Assembly (NCBI GenBank): GCA_964016885.1
Contig: OZ024752.1
Coordinates: 1,488,001 to 1,552,000, forward strand
Direction of reading: 5' to 3'
DNA length: 64,000 bases
Source of the DNA: Eledone cirrhosa
Lineage: Eukaryota
Below the pieces are notes generated by a model that saw only the letters and a list, made by a program, of their open reading frames with translations, was not told where the DNA came from and did not search any database. Each line of letters begins with the position of its first letter. Within the stretch, counting starts at the first letter, position 1. The position numbers and the translations under genes were made by a program. Positions 7,741-62,530 of this stretch are shown here, piece by piece.

Positions 7741-8010
7741 ACAAGGATCGGAATTAGAGTATTCCGCAGTTCACAGTAATAATAATATTAGCTCAAAGAA
7801 GAACAGAGAATTTTCAACTGAGCAAAATACAAATATATTACACAGAGAGAAGTGTGTTACACAGTGAGATGCGTGTAAATAATTATTACATGTGAGTTTA
7901 ACCGTTACTGTATGGAAAACAACGCCTACAGGTTGGCATTTAAATAGAAAACTAAGTCAGGATCAAATCTCCGAAGTAGAGTTTTAAATTACCAACCTTA
8001 TAACTATAAG

Positions 8011-8085
8011 CTTGCAGATACGAATCTATTTCGTTTCGCCACTGAAATGTAGAGTGTAAAGTCCACAGGGTCCTCAGTCAGCAAG
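8011..8085 (-). ncRNA. Type I hammerhead ribozyme (family B, inverted copy)
   Basis: Reverse complement of 8330-8404 with one stem II substitution. Confidence 0.75.
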
Positions 8086-8134
8086 TGTGGAATTGTTAGC
8101 TACACATATAGCCTAATGTATATATATATGTATC

Positions 8135-8201
<67 letters not shown>

Positions 8202-8215
8202 GTATTTATAGATGC

Positions 8216-8299
<84 letters not shown>

Positions 8300-8329
8300 T
8301 AGGCTATATGTGTAGCTAACAATTCCACA

Positions 8330-8404
8330 CTTGCTGACTGAGGACCCTGTGGACTTTACACTCCACATTTCAGTGGCGAAACGAAATAGATTCGTATCTG
8401 CAAG
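8330..8404 (+). ncRNA. Type I hammerhead ribozyme, canonical CUGAGGA core, predicted GUA cleavage after 8396
   Basis: Stem I CTTGCtGA/TCtGCAAG; CTGAGGA; stem II with TGTGGA/TCCACA; GAAA; stem III ACGAA-ataga-TTCGT; H17=A. Confidence 0.8.
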
Positions 8405-8583
8405 CTTATAGTTATAAGGTTGGTAATTTAAAACTCTACTTCGGAGATTTGATCCTGACTTAGTTTTCTATTTAAATGCCAACCTGTAGGCGTTGTTTTC
8501 CATACAGTAACGGTTAAACTCACGTGTAATAATTCTTTACACGCATCTCACTGTGTAACACACTTCTCTCTGTGTAATATATT

Positions 8584-8587
<4 letters not shown>

Positions 8588-8629
<42 letters not shown>

Positions 8630-16363: not shown

Positions 16364-16753
16364 TAATACCCGAATATATGCCGAACCTACCACCTGTATC
16401 TAAATGTGTGCGCTCTGAACTGGCAATTCGGAAATGCAAGTCCCGTTAAATCATCGAGCGAGTGGGAAGATTCAACGTAATAGCACAAACTCAGTTTGTT
16501 TGATTCGATACACTTATATATATATATATATGCATATAAGAGAGTATTGAAGTTTGCTTGAAGCATTGTGGAATAATAAGATTTATTTTATTTTAGTCGT
16601 TTTGTAAGCCTCAACAATGAAAAGGGGTGAGTCTCCGGGTAACAGGATCCGGTGGTGAAGAGAGAGATGTAAGGGAATGTAGAATGAGATGTATAGTGTG
16701 TAGAGGAACGTAGGAAAGAGCGTAAAAACAAAAATAACACGAGATTTAATTGT

Positions 16754-16783
16754 CCCTAAATTTCGGATTCGCATCAACTGGGG
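16754..16783 (-). ncRNA. Hammerhead-like remnant with CAGUUGA core in the PLE pseudo-LTR
   Basis: CCC-CAGTTGA-TGCGAATCC-GAAA-TTTA-GGG, a deleted version of 54223-54258. Confidence 0.3.
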
Positions 16784-17135
16784 GGTTTTCCGGGGAGGGG
16801 GTAAGTTATCTGACGGAGAGGAATGGTACTTGTCCTCTGCTGTTCGCTGTTTGTGACTAACTGATGAATTCTGCAGAGCGCACGTGCGCGCGGAATAGGT
16901 GCGATCAAGCAAAGGTCGAAGCAGTTATTTTAATTGTGGGAGTGGGATGGCGTTAGCTGTCAATCCATTGTACTATTCATCTGTGCTGGTTTTTGGTACT
17001 AGCAGTGTAGTATAGTCGTATGGTAGTAGTCTGCCTGGTCGCGTGTTGGTCGGTGGAAGGTGGCGGTGCTACACACACAATAAAAATCGTTCGAATGCCA
17101 CTGTGTGCGTGTGCGTGTGTTGTTGTCTCGTTTGT

Positions 17136-17681
17136 TTACACTAACCACCTCATCTCGCTTCTCTCGGATCGGTTATTTATTTGTGGCTCTTGGCGTTTGA
17201 TCCAAAGGGCTTCCTTGATTCGTAACGTGCCCACGTTGCGTTCTGTCGCTAGCACTGTGACAATGGGCCTTCCGTTATTGTTTCCGCATTTGGTTATGTG
17301 TTTCCGGAAAGACGAGGCCCTGGTGTTGATGTGCTCCTTGATCCGGATATGTAGCGGCCGGATTGTGCTACCGATATAGTAGCGGTTGCACTTGTCACAT
17401 TCTACCTTGTATACAACGTATGTGGGGAAGCAACAGTACGTATGGCGCATCGGACAGTCTATTTCCCGGGTTTCCTGGAGAAGCATCTTCGCAGGGAGGG
17501 GCCGTATAGCCCTGCGGATAGCGTTGGTGGTATTCTCGCCCATATGTGGTATTTTAAGGAAGCACTTGCCTTCGGTGTTTCTCAGCCTCTTGCGTCTGGT
17601 GTCTCTTACTCTGTTTGTGAGCGAGGTTGGGTAGCCGTTCGTCTCCAGCACTTTGAGGAATCGCTTGATGTAGGTGACCAA
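17136..17681 (-). pseudogene. Penelope-like element C-terminal thumb/linker + GIY-YIG endonuclease (truncated ORF)
   Basis: NGYP motif, then VVYKVECDKCNRYYIGSTIRPLHIRIKEH..EALWIKRQEPQIN: GIY-YIG with CxxC, conserved R, E and N. The ORF start is the truncation point, not a real start. Confidence 0.9.
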
Positions 17682-18041
17682 AGTAACTCTATCTCGTGTT
17701 ATTATTTTTATTTTTTAAGCTCTTTCCTACGTTGCTCTACACACTATACATCTCATTCTATATTCCTTTACCTCTCTCTCTTTACCACCGGATCCTGTTA
17801 CCCGGAGACTTTCCCATCTGCATTGTTGCGGGTTCCAAAATGACCAAAAGAAAATAAATAAATATATATAGACGGCGGGTAGTGAAGACGTATGCATTCT
17901 TTTCTGACTATGATATTTTGTAATATGTTTTACATAGATCAATAATTAAATGAACATGCAGAATATTACCGCCCAGAAACGATCGTAAAATAATGTGTTT
18001 TACTATGAATTAACAGTTATGTGTTTAATTTCATTGTTTTA

Positions 18042-33514: not shown

Positions 33515-34686
33515 GCGGAGGTGGCGAACACTTACTTAGCGTCCATCATCTACTTCCGCTTGACAGTCGCGAGGAACAGGCTCCATTGGTGAGGAGTTCC
33601 ATCTGCTACCAACACCCTTCTGACGGAGGGCTGGCCATGCCGTGGCTGATGATACGCAAACACGCGCTGAGACTACACCATCTCCAGGTACTCCTGACTG
33701 GCAAATCGGTGTGGCTGTCGTTTGTGAGACGAGCTCTTCCACACCTCGTATCACTAACAGAGGTGCAGTCCTGGGCCAAGCGAAGGCCCAAAATGGGTGC
33801 CTGGCACCTCGAGTGCCTTCAGGCAGGCGCTCACAGTCCTCTGCCAAGCAGAAACGGCAATTAGCGGCGACTCCATTTCGACATTCTATAGAGGATTAGT
33901 GGAGGATATGTGCGATTACGTTCTCGGGGAAACTCTAGGCACCGAGGAGGACGAACTGACCAGTCTGTTCGGGAGGACTTTCCGTCCAGGGCCTATGGAT
34001 AACCTCCTGAGGTCTCTGGTCTGGCAGTGCTACCGAGGAGCTTTACCAGTTAGAGACAAAATCCACAGGCACGGACACCTTGGCAGAGATCATTCCAAAA
34101 GGACCTGTCCAAGATGCGAGCAGAACATCGAAACCGTTCTCCACGCAATTGTTCAGTGCCCAGAGGTGATCGACCTGTGGAAATATGTCGAACAGCTACT
34201 GTCACGTGTGGAATGCATCCAGTTGTCATCATGAGGATCATGCCCCCTCCCCGTCTTCGTTTAAGAATGAAGGAGAGGCGGTCCTCCTCTGCCTGGTGGC
34301 TATGACGAAAGAGGTAATATGGTGGACGAGGTTAGAAGGACTGAGACCAAACACCTTTCTCTCGGGCAAACTCATCCCCTTCTTTAAGTACCACTTCAGA
34401 AGGAAGGAAAGAGATGTGCTACACCCCAGTAAATTCGCTGAAAGATGGGTTAATGTGGCGAAAATGGCCCGAGTGAATGGTCCTTCTCTGTATATAAACC
34501 TGTAGGTTGAGGAAGATAAACAGGGGGAAGACGGGACCACCTTATTGGGGATTTCAATTGTTATTTTATTATATATAGTTTATTGTTATTTATTAATGTT
34601 AAAGTTATATGATATCTATTTAAAACCCCCGCCGTGATGTCTTGTAATGTCCCCTTTTTGTACGCATTTGTGGCAAATAAAGAAAG
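33515..34686 (+). mobile_element. 5'-truncated Tx1/L1-clade LINE (ORF2 C-terminus with zf-RVT, frameshifted)
   Basis: LVWQCYRGALPV..CPRC..ETVLHAIVQCP..LW zinc-binding motif. AATAAA near the 3' end. 12-bp target duplication ATATCTATCTAT at 33503-33514 and 34687-34698. Confidence 0.85.
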
Positions 34687-34741: not shown

Positions 34742-34784
<43 letters not shown>

Positions 34785-34789
<5 letters not shown>

Positions 34790-35360
34790 TGTGCGTATAG
34801 TATATTTTATAATATACTGTATGTTTATTTAAAAAAAACATTTTGAAGACCTATGGCATTTACTGTAGTGACTACGTCACGTAGATAGTACCGGCAAAAG
34901 CAAAGTGGGTAATCGACGTTCATCGTTTCTCGCTGATAAACGGTTGTCAAGACTACTCACCACTTCGATTCTACTGATAGTTATAGAAGCTGGATTCTTA
35001 TTGAATTCCAGTTATGTTTATGAGCTGTTTAAACTTATTAACATACAGAGCGGTTGACAGCCCGGCAAAAATTAGAAATTAGTATTAGTGCTCTGAAATA
35101 ACGATGTATATATGAATGTAGTTATAGTATATTTGATAATATACTGTATGTTATTTTAAACCATTTTGAAGACCATTCGCTATGAATTTTAAAGTAGTGA
35201 CTACGTCACATACTCAGTCTTGGCAAGGCAAAGGGGAGTAATCGACTGTCACCATTTCTTGCTCAGCTCAGAAACATAACTGGAATTCTATAAGAATCCA
35301 GCTTCTATAACACTCGGCAGAACCGAAGAGGTATGTGGTCTTGACAACCGCTTATGACAG
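34785..35360 (-). mobile_element. Retrozyme-like family D relative: 323-bp tandem unit followed by an inverted segment
   Basis: TTTTGAAGACC..GTAGTGACTACGTCAC recurs at 34841 and 35164. 35265-35352 is an inverted copy of ~34940-35027. Patchy homology to 38330-38940. Confidence 0.7.
34904..34964 (-). ncRNA. Type I hammerhead, UUGACAA (U3-A8) core, GUC site
   Basis: AGTGG..GTC-TTGACAA-cCG-tttatcag-CGa-GAAA-CG-atgaa-CG-TC-GAT..CCACT. Confidence 0.6.
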
Positions 35361-37670: not shown

Positions 37671-37767
37671 CTCTCTCTATATATATATATATATAAAGAA
37701 AAAAAGATGAAATCAAAAATGCAACTGGAGTCATATTTTAAAAAATATATATATATTTATTTGGTTC

Positions 37768-37803
37768 CTTTACCAGTTTCGCAGTTCTTCTGCTTTTCAA
37801 AAG
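37768..37803 (-). ncRNA. Minimal type I hammerhead, UUGAAAA (U3-A8) core
   Basis: CTT-TTGAAAA-GCAG-aagaa-CTGC-GAAA-CTGG-TA-AAG. Confidence 0.65.
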
Positions 37804-37880
37804 TAGAGTTGAGATGGAGAGTCTGTGGATTTTCTCACATTTGATGTGTGAAAAACCACAGACCCTCTATCTCAACTCTA

Positions 37881-37916
37881 CCTTTGAAAAGCAGAAGAAC
37901 TGCGAAACCGGTAAAG
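37881..37916 (+). ncRNA. Minimal type I hammerhead, UUGAAAA (U3-A8) core, palindromic ACCGGU stem III, GUA site after 37913
   Basis: CCT-TTGAAAA-GCAG-aagaa-CTGC-GAAA-CCGG-TA-AAG, with one stem I mismatch. Confidence 0.65.
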
Positions 37917-37997
37917 GAACCAAATAAATATATATATTTAAAAAAAAATAAGACTCCGGTTGCATTTTCGAAAACTAAATGTCTAACTTTGAGTTTG

Positions 37998-38214: not shown

Positions 38215-38286
<72 letters not shown>

Positions 38287-38427
38287 CATATTTTAACATA
38301 TTTGTATATATAATATATATATACAAATTGCTCCAATTCTAATCTTTAATTTCTGCCTGACAAACAACCGCTCTGCATAATCAGCTCCTGATTATTTACT
38401 AGATTTCTATAAGAATATAACATCAAT

Positions 38428-38520
38428 GATCTCAGCAAACAGGTGGGGTAGTTGGCCTTGATAAGCTTCAACCAAAGCGAAACAAGTCTTGTCGGCTTAT
38501 CTCCCCTGTTTGCTGAGATC
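38428..38520 (+). ncRNA. Extended type I hammerhead ribozyme, UUGAUAA (U3-A8) core, GUC cleavage predicted after 38493
   Basis: Stem I GATCTCAGCAAACAGG..GGGGTAG.ttg.GCC / GGC.TTATCTCC.CCTGTTTGCTGAGATC; stem II GCTT-caacca-AAGC; GAAA; stem III ACAAG-t-CTTGT; H17=C. Confidence 0.85.
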
Positions 38521-38743
38521 AAAGTGAGTGAATTTGTCACTACTTTAAAACAATAGCTTACGGTCTTCAAAATGCTTTTAATTAAGCATAAAGTGTATTG
38601 CAAAATACATTATATATACATCCATATATATATTGCTATTTCAGAGCTCCAATTCTAATCTTTAATTTCTGCCTGACCAACAACCGCTCTGCATAATCAG
38701 CTCCTGATTATTTACTAGATTTCTATAAGAATATAATATCAAT

Positions 38744-38836
38744 GATCTCAGCAAACAGGTGGGGTAGTTGGCCTTGATAAGCTTCAACCAAAGCGAAACA
38801 AGTCTTGTCGGCTTATCTCCTCTGTTTGCTGAGATC
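38744..38836 (+). ncRNA. Extended type I hammerhead ribozyme, second family D copy, cleavage predicted after 38809
   Basis: Same as 38428-38520 except one G-C to G-U change in distal stem I. Confidence 0.85.
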
Positions 38837-39059
38837 AAAGTGAGTGAATTTGTCACTACTTTAAAACAATAGCTTACGGTCTTCAAAATGCTTTTAATTA
38901 AGCATAAAATGTATTGCAAAATACATTATATATACATATATATATATATAGTAATAATAATAAAATTGAAGACTAAAATCCAGAGAGGGCTCGATAAGGA
39001 AAATATATATCAAATATATAAGAACCGAAGAGCAAATATTTATTAAAATAACAGATTAA

Positions 39060-39110
39060 AGTTTAAGCAAATAATCGCTGCTTTCACCCTTAATGGGATC
39101 TTCTGAAACT
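39060..39110 (-). ncRNA. Type I hammerhead-like motif, CAGAAGA (U4A) core
   Basis: AGTTT-CAGAAGA-tCCC-attaa-GGGt-GAAA-GCA-gcgattatt-TGC-TT-AAACT. Confidence 0.65.
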
Positions 39111-39693
39111 AACAAAGTCAATCTGTAAACGCAGAACTGAATATTTCAAAAAACGTTGCAACCGGAGGAAGACAGGAAGACGATACTTTGGTTCATGGTG
39201 ACGTTCGCTGGCAAAGAACGGGAAAAAACGAATAATACGTCATTAATAGGAGCGGTGAAAAACAATTACGTGCAAGGACAGAACCACGGTTATGGTATAA
39301 AAGAGGTCGTAGACTAATGTTCTCTAAGTGGTGCATAGAGACGTAGTCTACGACTTCTGCTATACCATTTACGTGGTTTTGTCTTTGCACGCTATTGTTC
39401 TCCACGCTCCACATATGACGTATTATCTTCGTTTTTTCGTTCATTGCCAGAGAACGTCTCTATGCACCACTTAGAGAACATTAGTCTACGACCTCTTTTA
39501 TACCATAAACGTGGTTCTGTCTTTGCGTGTAATTGTTTTTCACCGCTCTAAATAATCACATATTATATTCGTTTTTTCCCGTTCTTTGCCAGGGAACGTT
39601 ACCACGAACCAAAGTATCGTCTTCCTGTCTTCCTCCGGTTGCAACGTTTTTTGAAATATCCAGTTCTGCGTTTACAGATTGACTTTTTTGTGT

Positions 39694-39744
39694 AGTTTCA
39701 GAAGATCCCGTTAAGGGTGAAAGCAGCGATTCTTTGCTTAAACT
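39694..39744 (+). ncRNA. Type I hammerhead-like motif, CAGAAGA (U4A) core, predicted CUU site after 39739
   Basis: Stem I AGTTT/AAACT; stem II CCC/GGG; GAAA; stem III AGCA/TGCT. Confidence 0.65.
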
Positions 39745-39755
39745 TTAATCTGTTA

Positions 39756-40243
<488 letters not shown>

Positions 40244-56880: not shown

Positions 56881-58120
56881 TACATAAAAAATATACAAAA
56901 AATACCTGTAAGAAAAGCATATAAAGATACACAGGGTTGTACATGCAGACAGAGTTGATATTATGCTGCCAACGTGGATAAATCCGCGTATAGACACCTC
57001 AAGTAAGGCTACATATGATGAGTTCATGGTATTATTGCAAAGGGTATGCCCGGACCGTATATAGTAAATTCAGGGAGGATATATAAAAAAAATGTATGCA
57101 GAATATATTTAAAAAAATACATACATCTGAATTATATAAGAAAAGTATACAAAGATATACGTTGGTTTGTACATGGGAAAATATATGGGGTGTTACATAA
57201 TGGAGTGCGTGGAAAATATGCACATACCACTGAAAAGATACACATGCAGGGAGTGCGTGAACAGGCGATAAAGGAGCATGTCACTGTGGGTGAGATAGAG
57301 TGCCTTATTGATGTATTTGGTACGCTTTCATCAGATAAAATACAAAGTGTGTTTTATAAATATTGACATAGCCAAGGAACATACCTTAACGGTTGAAAGC
57401 GTACCAAAGTTTTTGGTACCCTTGAAATATATATAATAGAATAAATATGGTTCTATAAATATAGTTTCCATTTATTTAATATCATTGTATATATATATAT
57501 AAATATATATGTGTGTGTGTGTGTGTGTGTGTCCTTTTGGAGTAACTGGGAGGTTTCGAGTTGCGCAAGTATTCTTTCAGTAGCCCACAATTCATGACCA
57601 TAATTAAGAATATGCCGAAACACCAACTTCAATATAGCGAGATTTGCTACATCTACGAATCTTCTTCCAATGACCAACTGTGTTGAAACATCTAAAGTGC
57701 GTGTGACATGCCTTGATTCTGTGAACTGGTCAGAGCATTGATAATTTTTAACCTTGTGTATAGTAAATAATCTAGGAAATTCTTATTTTTATATTTAAGT
57801 TATATTCTTGAGTTGCTTGTTAGAAGAAAATTCGCTCATATTGCATTACTATATTAAATAATTTGGTTGCAATCAATGTAAATTAGTTTAATTCTGATAA
57901 TGATTATATGAATTGAATAAATTACTTTGAAAAGCTTAAGGGAAATTATTATTCAAATTTTAGTTTATGTATATATTCTTTCTGTAGACTCGGTGGAATA
58001 TTTTGGTGAATTGTATTACACCAATAAGCATAGAATTGATTTAGTCCCAATAAGCTGAGCTCGCATTTCACGTTTATGTTGTATATCTAAACATTATTAT
58101 TACAAAATTACTATATAAAT

Positions 58121-58306
58121 GGTGGTGGATTGGCAGTATCGGTAGAGGGTCGGACGCCATGCTTTGAAGGATAGAGTTACGGCCCTTGCCATTCTGAGTT
58201 CAAATCCCGCCGATTTTAACTTTGCCTTTCATCCTTACGGGGTCGATAAAATAAAGTACCAGTAATGCACTGGGTAATTGCTGGCCTTGTGTCAAAAGTA
58301 GAAACA
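58121..58306 (+). mobile_element. SINE family 1, full length
   Basis: A/B boxes, core and tail. Flanked by ATTATTACA(A/T)AATTA. Confidence 0.9.
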
Positions 58307-58330
58307 ATTATTACATAATTATATTATGTA

Positions 58331-58518
58331 AGGGCGGTTGATTGGCAGTATCGGTAGAGGGTCGGACGCCATGCTTTGCAGCAAAGAGTTACGGCCCTTT
58401 ATGGTCCGAGTTCAAATCCCGCCAAGGTTAACTTTGCCTTTCATCTTTAAGGGGTCGATAAAATAAAATACCAGTAATACACTGATAAATTGGTGGCCTT
58501 GTGCCAAAAGTAGAAGCA
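58331..58518 (+). mobile_element. SINE family 1, full length, tandem to the previous copy
   Basis: Same structure. TSD ATTATTACATAATTATAT at 58307 and 58519. Confidence 0.9.
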
Positions 58519-60119
58519 ATTATTACATAATTATATATGTTTATCTGCTTGTGGATCAATTCTTGTCATGTCAGATTGGTGGAATGGATTATTATGCAGG
58601 AATAGTATGTGTGTCTAAATATATATATATATATATATACCCCCATCACACACATATATATATATATAATGCTGAGTTATATATTTTAAATGTAACTCAT
58701 CATTGGTATTAATGAGGCTGATACTATCTGCCGGCTCCACGAAGGTTATTGAGAATATCACGTATTATCAATTATCAGAAGATATTGTTTTGTATAATTT
58801 TTCGTACTTTTCTAACTACACGGAGTAGTATCCTCTTGATATATCTGAAACACCTTCGGCAAATATAACCAGCCAAAGTATCCGCCGTTCCGTATATTTA
58901 CACCATCAACATAAATTATAAGACATGATAGTTGACAAAGTTATTAGACGTGAGATAAAATGTTTTATTGCACTTTTCACTCCAGCTCTCTGTGTTCAAA
59001 TTTCAAATAGTAAAATTTTGCCGGGATTTATTTCGGCCTCCAATAAATATATTACACCACCCCGTGTGATCGGTATGTATTTTATGGCATTAAGGAGGCG
59101 ATTAACTGCCTGGCACAGAAACCTGCAATTTGTCTTGTAATGGTAACTTTGGACAGAGATGCACTCAAATATTCATATAATAGGAATAGTTTGTCATGTG
59201 ACATATGCATATATATTGAAAGAGTAAACAGAATGTGTTAAATATATCATGCAATATATTTTGATTCATAATCTTTATTCATGGCAACGTCCTGCTTCAA
59301 AGTCTTCCATTTAATGAAGTGAGCGTGCCATAAGGTGGTGTACATTCATCGAATATCTCTGTGACATACATATCACATATGTTCAATATACACTTGCTTT
59401 TTTTTGGAGAGACGTGTTTTAAAACGACCGCTCTAACAAAAATTCGTACTGTCCAATAATTGTAACGATTAAATATAAATATATCACAATGTAAAGTTGC
59501 GAAACTCTCTTACGACACCAAGGTACTTAAATATTTACTTCACAGGGTATTTGTGAAAGGATATTTCTATGACGCATAAATAGAATTAGGACGGTATTAT
59601 TCAAATAAATCATTCAACAAAGGTTAATAAGAATGTGAAGTTTTATATAAGGTGAAATGAACGGTGATAAATATTTTAAAGATTAAAACAAAGCGGGTAC
59701 GATTGTTGTATATGTAATTCAGAAAGCTATAGGCTATCACCAACGAATGCTTACTTAATCGGTCGCTTGCGTAAAAGGTTCCTGTGCAAATGGGATATTA
59801 TTAGACCCTTAAATCTTTGCAACGATTATATATATAGATTCATAGAGGCACAAACAACATTACTGTAAACCAAACATTATCTCTGCTATACCAATTTAAA
59901 AATCACCGGCAATCTATGTAAATAAACCTTCCAAATGATAGCTTGTTTACAATCTTCTACCCCACACTCTCGTAGTTAGTAAATATATGTTAATGAGGAA
60001 TTAGGGAAACCTGAAATATGTATTCATGAAAATCTATTTACCTGTGATATGATCACAAAGTATGTCGATCAGTCATATACACAGAGTAAATGTGATAATA
60101 TATATCATTACACACGCAC

Positions 60120-62076: not shown

Positions 62077-62198
62077 GGAGGTGAGTTTTATTGTAGTACA
62101 ATAAAGCAATGCAGATATCGGATAAGAAGCACTCTACAGTTTGTAGGACTGGAGTATGCATAATATAAGATCAAAAGATGGTTAAAGGAGTTCCATGT

Positions 62199-62267
62199 AT
62201 TTTATTATGCGCATTTCAAAAACAAACATCATCATGCAATAATATTTGTGTTTTCATCAGATAAAAC
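62199..62267 (-). ncRNA. Type I hammerhead ribozyme (family H, minus copy)
   Basis: Exact reverse complement of 62391-62459. Confidence 0.85.
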
Positions 62268-62390
62268 AGGAGAACATGATATGAAGGCTAAAAAACACTT
62301 GTGGATAGTGCAGTTTTAAATCAACATAATATGTTGATTTAAAGCTGCACTATCCACGAGTGTTTTTTAGCCTTCATATCATGTTCTCCT

Positions 62391-62459
62391 GTTTTATCTG
62401 ATGAAAACACAAATATTATTGCATGATGATGTTTGTTTTTGAAATGCGCATAATAAAAT
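62391..62459 (+). ncRNA. Type I hammerhead ribozyme, canonical CUGAUGA core, AUA cleavage predicted after 62452
   Basis: Stem I GTTTTAT/ATAAAAT; CTGATGA; stem II AAAcaCAAATATTATT-gcat-GATGATGTTTG-TTTTT; GAAA; palindromic stem III ATGCGCAT. Confidence 0.85.
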
Positions 62460-62490
62460 ACATGGAACTCCTTTAACCATCTTTTGATCT

Positions 62491-62530
<40 letters not shown>

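What the first reader, a model, noticed from the sequence alone, without database searches (positions are those of the whole stretch)
38330..38940. Intact 316-nt tandem retrozyme with an extended U3-A8 hammerhead: best experimental candidate
Two almost identical units each carry a well-formed type I ribozyme: ~26-bp bulged stem I, 4-bp stem II with a 6-nt loop, and a GUC site. The rest of the unit is also hairpin-rich (ATAATCAG/CTGATTAT, ATGCTT/AAGCAT, TGTATT-gcaa-AATACA). Cleavage after 38493 and 38809 would release an exact 316-nt viroid-like monomer. Head-to-tail copies are what reverse transcription around a circular RNA would leave.
Basis: partly seen in the sequence, partly recalled or inferred. 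Interest (0 to 1): 0.85.

Follow-up and report, generated by a model that had tools for sequence, protein, structure and literature searches.

The report
Penelope-stamped retrozyme with U3-A8 hammerhead
This repeat is one of roughly two thousand near-identical genomic copies of a 316-base mobile unit with a hammerhead ribozyme motif predicted to cut itself out and circularise, and its insertions carry the footprint of Penelope-like retrotransposons, which likely supply the copying enzyme.

Summary
In detail: 1.96 units of 316 nt (38330-38949), each with a type I hammerhead whose core has U3-A8 instead of C3-G8; predicted cuts after 38493 and 38809. It is no local duplication: 327 exact and 1,886 loose core copies lie in the genome, about 1% diverged, in arrays up to 26 units. 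A sister family (73-80% alike) has C3-G8 and compensatory changes in stems I-III and three other hairpins, so the fold is under selection. The class is known (animal non-LTR retrozymes). Extra here: 100 of 106 insertion ends fall at two fixed sites 26-33 nt apart, mostly against (AT)n; 33 of 36 two-armed, back-to-back insertions use one site per arm. That is the published Penelope-like-element (PLE) footprint (inverted copy, one-sided tail, two adjacent RT starts), so PLE mobilisation, so far argued from co-occurrence and phylogeny, shows in the junctions. Start points are fixed, not permuted. Cleavage, expression and circles are untested; folding favours a self-blocked conformer, and this copy is not a uniquely good candidate.

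The parts
38330..38645 (+). Unit 1 (316 nt); its first base is the 5'-truncation point of this single-armed insertion
38646..38949 (+). Unit 2 (304 nt), ending at the family's fixed end 'A' inside an AU tract
38427..38521 (+). Hammerhead 1, type I: stem I 38427-38457/38494-38521, core U3-A8 38458-38464, stem II 38465-38478, GAAA 38479-38482, palindromic stem III 38482-38492, C17 = 38493
38743..38837 (+). Hammerhead 2, same anatomy, C17 = 38809
38494..38809 (+). Predicted 316-nt monomer between the two cuts (34% GC; circular fold -81.9 kcal/mol)
   Evidence: release and ligation inferred
38552..38640 (+). Three-hairpin domain closed by a 6-bp helix; each hairpin has one compensatory change in the sister family; site A (38633) lies at its 3' base; candidate RT-recognition element
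   Evidence: role inferred
38634..38666 (+). 'Tail' segment between end A (unit position 304) and end B (positions 14-21 of the next unit, 38659-38666)
   Evidence: 47 of 106 arm ends at A, 53 at B (tallied)
38377..38395 (+). 19-nt hairpin, identical in both families (again at 38693-38711); 2,449 exact genomic copies
38217..38329 (.). (TA)n-rich left flank, likely the target microsatellite; no target-site duplication can be read in it

Best explanation
This is a young insertion of a non-coding 316-nt repeat family with a conserved type I hammerhead motif (an animal non-LTR retrozyme), likely self-cleaved to a monomer, likely circularised, and likely copied into (AT)n microsatellites by the reverse transcriptase/GIY-YIG protein of a Penelope-like element. 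Steps: (1) multimeric transcript, promoter unknown (inferred); (2) cleavage after GUC, probably best as a double hammerhead through the palindromic stem III, giving 316-nt monomers (inferred from anatomy, covariation and published retrozymes); (3) ligation by a host RNA ligase (inferred from PMC7229834); (4) the PLE endonuclease cuts both strands of an (AT)n tract and each 3' end primes reverse transcription at one of two fixed sites 26-33 nt apart on the RNA (fixed ends, target and one-site-per-arm rule shown in DNA; the enzyme inferred); (5) each arm runs on for a variable length, often past one full unit, and the arms are joined 5' to 5' with short overlaps (shown); (6) some arrays grow later by DNA duplication (shown for the 26-unit array). 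The window copy kept one arm only.
For: Family size and youth: 327 exact 42-nt cores, control 0; 1,886 loose cores, control 1; median divergence 1.1% over 143 full units, 179 of 189 cores intact. Selection on the fold: 6 of 15 hammerhead pairs, including 3-8, change on both sides between the two families; variants seen in 3 or more loci keep pairing in 6 of 6 cases vs 15 of 55 rare ones (Fisher p 0.001). PLE footprint: 100 of 106 3' ends at A or B, 41 of 66 insertions two-armed and back to back, 33 of 36 A/B-classifiable pairs A+B (p 1e-7), 80 of 106 ends followed by (AT)3 vs 6% background; the same features are described for PLEs (PMC8557442 passages, PMC11167929 sections). Autonomous PLEs with 920-940-aa RT+GIY-YIG frames, hammerhead-bearing pLTRs and paired ends against (AT)n are abundant here. 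One retrozyme arm is joined 5' to 5' to a 3.1-kb arm of a PLE family of like age (96-98% among copies). One template per insertion: haplotype concordance 94% vs 26%; between arms 24 of 29 vs 7 expected.
Against: No cleavage, transcript or circle was observed. ViennaRNA gives the active local fold a probability of 0.03 or less; the blocked fold is favoured by 7.1 kcal/mol in the circle and by 8.2 for the double hammerhead (tertiary contacts and Mg2+ not modelled). In a 2026 preprint 8 of 9 Xenopus retrozyme dimers did not cleave in vitro, and the one PLE studied in vitro used uncleaved RNA and showed no reads ending at its ribozyme site (PMC11167929). No sequence homology to any PLE sampled (62 loci by blastn; 10 by nhmmer), so the partner is not identified. 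Core positions are only mildly more conserved than the rest (11/2058 vs 248/26277). Cross-family covariation rests on essentially one evolutionary branch. End A is homologous to the target (10-nt AU tract), unlike the non-homologous start reported for the anole PLE. Loci were chosen by high identity or an exact core, so young, core-bearing copies are over-sampled.
Confidence: 0.72

Rival explanations
1. A non-autonomous PLE-type element copied from linear, uncleaved multimeric transcripts; the hammerhead is conserved but slow, protein-dependent or used for something else, and no circle is the template.
For: Blocked conformer is the predicted ground state; the anole PLE inserts from unprocessed RNA (PMC11167929); long arrays show DNA-level expansion; haplotype uniformity and the even spread of 5' ends fit a homogeneous linear multimer too; 5 of 29 arm pairs differ in haplotype.
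Against: Each round from a finite linear array would shorten it, yet 33 of 66 insertions hold two or more cores; stem III stays a palindrome through several variants as expected for dimeric cleavage; coral, mussel and axolotl retrozymes form circles in vivo (PMC7229834).
Confidence: 0.2
2. A SINE-like element moved by a LINE, with inversions from twin priming.
For: LINE fragments are present in the window and loci; AT-rich 3' junctions and 5' inversions occur with LINEs (recalled).
Against: Both arms start at fixed sites 26-33 nt apart and both can run over several units; in twin priming (recalled) the second start is variable and the arms cover different parts of the RNA. The genome's PLEs show the same paired ends.
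Confidence: 0.05
3. An ordinary tandem duplication or minisatellite with a chance hammerhead-like motif.
For: Below the Rfam cut-off; some arrays expand as DNA.
Against: Copies on at least 11 large contigs, fixed ends, compensatory changes at the 3-8 pair and in stems I-III.
Confidence: 0.02

Closest known systems
Animal non-LTR retrozymes (Cervera and de la Pena 2020, PMC7229834; parts 2-4 of 6 read)
   Same: Non-coding 150-450-bp head-to-tail units, one type I hammerhead each, GC below 50%, no LTR, thousands of copies, PLEs in the same genome, short palindromic helix III.
   Different: Core U3-A8 in nearly all copies; about 27-bp stem I; insertion anatomy (two arms, tail, (AT)n target) is not described in the parts read; circles were shown there, not here.
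Retrozymes as non-autonomous PLE derivatives (bioRxiv 10.64898/2026.07.22.740005; parts 1-3 of 5 read, supplements closed)
   Same: Proposes PLE mobilisation; similar unit sizes.
   Different: Its evidence is co-occurrence and pLTR homology in Xenopus; here there is no detectable pLTR homology but the junctions carry the PLE footprint.
Penelope-like element insertions: inverted 5'-truncated copy, one-sided 30-40-bp tail, (TA)n targets, two adjacent RT starts (PMC8557442 and PMC3846280 passages; PMC11167929 parts 1-2 of 4)
   Same: Partial tandems, back-to-back arms, tail on one arm, AT-rich target, both strands extended.
   Different: No ORF; full-size hammerhead with stem III instead of a minimal one; tail 26-33 nt; start A is homologous to the target.
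U3-A8 minimal hammerheads of Schistosoma Cercyon PLEs (PMC4209133; parts 1-2 of 4 read)
   Same: Same core covariation.
   Different: There in minimal pLTR motifs, mostly single; here in an extended hammerhead of a tandem retrozyme, with a C3-G8 sister family in the same genome.

Membership tests
Animal non-LTR retrozyme | Head-to-tail units of about 150-450 bp with a type I hammerhead in each | tested here: met
Animal non-LTR retrozyme | Dispersed multicopy family, no ORF, no LTR structure, GC under 50% | tested here: met
   primer-binding site and polypurine tract not searched separately
Animal non-LTR retrozyme | Autonomous PLEs in the same genome | tested here: met
Animal non-LTR retrozyme | Self-cleavage to monomers | not testable with these tools
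   needs in vitro transcription; folding predicts a competing blocked state
Animal non-LTR retrozyme | Accumulation as circular RNA | tested here: inconclusive
   only contigs of unknown kind were available
Type I hammerhead ribozyme | Core with a 3-8 pair, G5, A6, A9, G12, A13, A14, A15.1-U16.1, H17 and three helices | tested here: met
   3-8 is U-A here and C-G in 5 of 6 sister rows
Type I hammerhead ribozyme | Rfam gathering score | tested here: not met
   24.8 bits vs 52 for HH9; the model's consensus has C3-G8 and a different stem I
Type I hammerhead ribozyme | Loop I-loop II tertiary contact | tested here: inconclusive
   6-nt loop II with invariant terminal A and a bulge 7 nt up stem I are present; contact not modelled
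PLE-mobilised insertion | Inverted 5'-truncated copy at the 5' end | tested here: met
   41 of 66 insertions; absent from the window copy
PLE-mobilised insertion | Tail on one arm only / two adjacent RT starts | tested here: met
   33 of 36 pairs; sister family 12 of 14 by eye
PLE-mobilised insertion | Homology to the pLTR of an autonomous PLE | tested here: not met
   none among the PLE loci sampled; the genome holds over 10,000 GIY-YIG candidates, only about 70 loci seen
Viroid | RNA-to-RNA replication, ribozymes on both strands, no DNA form | tested here: not met
   DNA copies; hammerhead on one strand only

The most novel reading that the evidence does not exclude
A circular-RNA parasite of Penelope-like elements that exposes how they integrate: a two-active-site PLE complex primes the two cut strands at two different fixed sites, one each, can take a different RNA in each half (retrozyme on one arm, PLE on the other), and rolls round a 316-nt circle whose hammerhead is a conserved switch, blocked in the monomer by core-to-stem-III pairing (kept through two compensatory changes that accompany the C3-G8/U3-A8 swap) and active in multimers.
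Probability: 0.25. Interest if true: 0.75.

Novelty: new variant of a known kind. Interest (0 to 1): 0.48.

Why it matters
Which enzyme moves animal retrozymes, and how PLEs make their inverted arms and tails, are stated open questions (PMC7229834, PMC8557442, the 2026 preprint). This family gives junction-level evidence for PLE mobilisation and a 316-nt natural template with mapped start sites, plus candidate proteins from the same genome, so both questions can be put to an in vitro reaction. The natural C3-G8 / U3-A8 sister pair also allows a direct kinetic comparison and a test of how animal circles avoid re-cleavage. The element class itself is not new.

Tried and rejected
RNA evidence: no RNA holder listed; four contig sets laid cannot show ends, strand or circles. 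Rfam gathering scan of the window: 0 hits. C3 variants of this family's core: 4 matches, all C3 with A8, none C3-G8; two arise at inversion junctions. Partner PLE by homology: none; a shared 7-nt end motif with the L127 PLE family is too short to count. Pile-up of 5' ends at the cut site: absent. Pol III boxes and octamer (motifs recalled): none within one mismatch; the bacterial promoter scan is irrelevant and at chance level. Automatic A/B classing of the sister family was noisy (22 of 29 unclassed; 6 of 7 classed were A+B), so the by-eye count is given. In one search the energy gaps for rows whose stem III was mis-parsed are not used. A kinetic paper on U3-A8 was not found and PMC5785218 is not held. 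Earlier findings for this genome or sequence: none. The host was not identified; a literature search with 'octopus' rested on an unverified guess from repeat content and showed no retrozyme paper.

Full report
Observation. The window holds a 316-bp tandem at 38330-38949, the second unit 12 nt short. Each unit has a type I hammerhead: core UUGAUAA (38458, 38774), stem II of 4 bp with a 6-nt loop, GAAA, a 4-bp stem III that is a near-perfect palindrome, and GUC ending at 38493 and 38809. Stem I has about 27 pairs with bulges. Folding is far from chance (z -8.5 and -5.9). Rfam gives no gathering hit in the window but Hammerhead_HH9 at E about 0.001 for both copies.

Family. The genome (G000, 3.0 Gb, an animal genome rich in microsatellites; host not identified) holds 327 exact copies of the 42-nt core (control 0) and 1,886 of a looser pattern (control 1). 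Only 4 have C at position 3 and none of those has G8. I fetched 80 loci (30 best DNA hits, 10 loose-pattern hits, 40 places from the exact-core list on C1 and C2), dropped 14 as overlaps and one segmental duplicate pair of arms, leaving 66 insertions and 106 arms with visible ends. Full units differ by a median 1.1% from column majorities (143 units); 179 of 189 cores are intact; 33 of 66 insertions hold two or more cores head to tail. The sample is biased to young copies.

Selection on the RNA fold. In paired columns, variants found in three or more loci keep pairing in 6 of 6 cases, rare ones in 15 of 55 (p 0.001). A sister family turned up beside a PLE: 73-80% alike, period 315, copies 93-96% alike, core C3-G8 in 36 of 37 motifs. 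On an 18-row alignment, 6 of 15 hammerhead pairs change on both sides, among them 3-8, two in stem I, two in stem II, one in stem III; slid controls fall to 29-48% paired. The three hairpins before end A have one compensatory change each and the 19-nt hairpin is invariant. These are few independent events, since most separate the two families. A third, older relative in the window (34777-35209, minus strand) also has U3-A8. U3-A8 is in print for minimal hammerheads of Schistosoma PLEs (PMC4209133; the only paper holding the term).

Insertion anatomy. Read in the ribozyme's sense, 47 of 106 arms end at unit position 304 or within a few bases (end A, in an AU tract) and 53 at positions 14-25 of the next unit (end B; 32 at 14, 16 at 19-21); 6 end elsewhere. 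80 of 106 are followed at once by (AT)3, against 6% of window positions. 5' ends are spread evenly, with no excess at the cut site (1 of 106, 1.7 expected), and 99 of 107 arms cross that site. 41 of 66 insertions have two arms back to back, joined 5' to 5', mostly with 1-5 nt overlaps. Of 36 pairs with both ends at A or B, 33 are A+B, 3 B+B (p 1e-7). The sister family uses the same two ends (12 of 14 pairs A+B by eye). Units of one insertion share the haplotype at three diagnostic columns (94% of 161 pairs vs 26% permuted, the two longest arrays left out), as do the two arms (24 of 29 vs 7.1). The 26-unit array has a 6-unit higher-order repeat, so it grew partly as DNA. The window copy is single-armed, ends at A and sits in a (TA)n-rich flank.

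What this footprint is. PLE insertions are described with partial tandems, an inverted 5'-truncated copy, a 30-40-bp tail on one end and (TA)n targets (PMC8557442, passages; PMC3846280, passages). For an anole PLE protein, both target strands are cut and extended, and reverse transcription starts at two adjacent internal sites that bound the tail (PMC11167929, parts 1-2). The retrozyme reproduces each point with a 26-33-nt tail. PLEs are abundant here (10,595 GIY-YIG candidates, 150 scored), with long RT+GIY-YIG frames, hammerheads in their pLTRs, one family also with U3-A8 (L127), and paired ends against (AT)n. None shows sequence homology to the retrozyme. Of 25 single-armed insertions I examined the 5' flank of 19. 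In three, the missing arm is replaced by a divergent arm of another two-ended family that stops at its own long end while the retrozyme stops at A: a 3.1-kb ORF-bearing PLE arm (L177, family 96-98% alike), and two hammerhead-like-motif-bearing short arms (L180, L188). Two more are possible (L181, L186); the other 14 show no such partner arm. Co-insertion of two RNAs would explain them, but so would later deletions; three cases do not decide.

Ribozyme activity. ViennaRNA prefers a blocked fold in which core positions 2.1-5 pair with the 5' arm of stem III and the GUC is buried (probability 0.97; active pairs 0.03 or less). Forcing the active fold costs 7.1 kcal/mol in the circle, 12.8 for two monomeric ribozymes and 8.2 for the strand-swapped double hammerhead. 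The blocking pairing is favoured in 16 of 18 aligned sequences and two of its four pairs change on both sides between the families, though the same columns also covary with their active partners. It is either a hindrance to cleavage or a switch that protects the circle, a question left open in PMC7229834. Eight of nine Xenopus dimers failed to cleave in the 2026 preprint, so cleavage cannot be assumed.

Mechanism and status. Shown in DNA: family, youth, covariation, fixed paired ends, target, one template per insertion in most cases. Inferred: transcription, cleavage, ligation, circular template, PLE enzyme. Best reading 0.72; PLE-moved linear multimer without a circle 0.2; LINE twin priming 0.05; plain duplication 0.02.

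Novelty. Non-LTR retrozymes, their proposed PLE dependence and the U3-A8 core are each in print. Searches for a retrozyme described with inverted arms and tail returned no such description in the passages read, but supplements of PMC7229834 and the preprint were not seen and subscription journals are missing. Unchecked AI notes from other genomes report the PLE footprint on other non-coding repeats, so the footprint on a non-autonomous unit is probably general. Verdict: a real retrozyme, a new variant of a known kind, useful mainly as a test substrate for PLE mechanism.

Noticed in passing
window 37692-37971: Two-armed pLTR fragment of the L127 PLE family; each arm has a minimal hammerhead with a U3-A8 core.
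   Followed up: partly
window 16560-17880: 5'-truncated PLE with a GIY-YIG frame (17136-17714, minus strand; Pfam PF01541) and an inverted copy of its 3' end upstream.
   Followed up: partly
window 34777-35209 (minus strand): Old relative of the retrozyme (78%), hammerhead with U3-A8 core at 34950-34915.
   Followed up: partly
window 62150-62500: Palindromic element with a C3-G8 hammerhead-like motif on each strand.
   Followed up: no
window 39036-39768 and 7827-8588: Further long inverted-repeat elements flanked by (AT)n; the first is very abundant in the laid runs.
   Followed up: no
window 58096-58540: 212-bp tandem of a SINE-like unit; the same unit interrupts the PLE arm in L177.
   Followed up: no
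window 33758-34234: LINE fragment with zf-RVT domain.
   Followed up: no
G000 whole: Forward matches exceed reverse by 400-500 in two pattern counts (1149 vs 737; 1479 vs 970), hinting at one or more very long arrays not located.
   Followed up: no
L086 2438-2880 and L147-L176: Sister retrozyme family, C3-G8 core, U-U at the base of stem II, GUU site in most copies, same two ends.
   Followed up: yes
run X5, loose end at window 38484: A contig from another organism code carries a stem III variant that is a longer perfect palindrome; the family occurs in runs of four organism codes.
   Followed up: no
L029 and L173: Two insertions whose arms use the same end class also have arms from different subfamilies.
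   Followed up: partly
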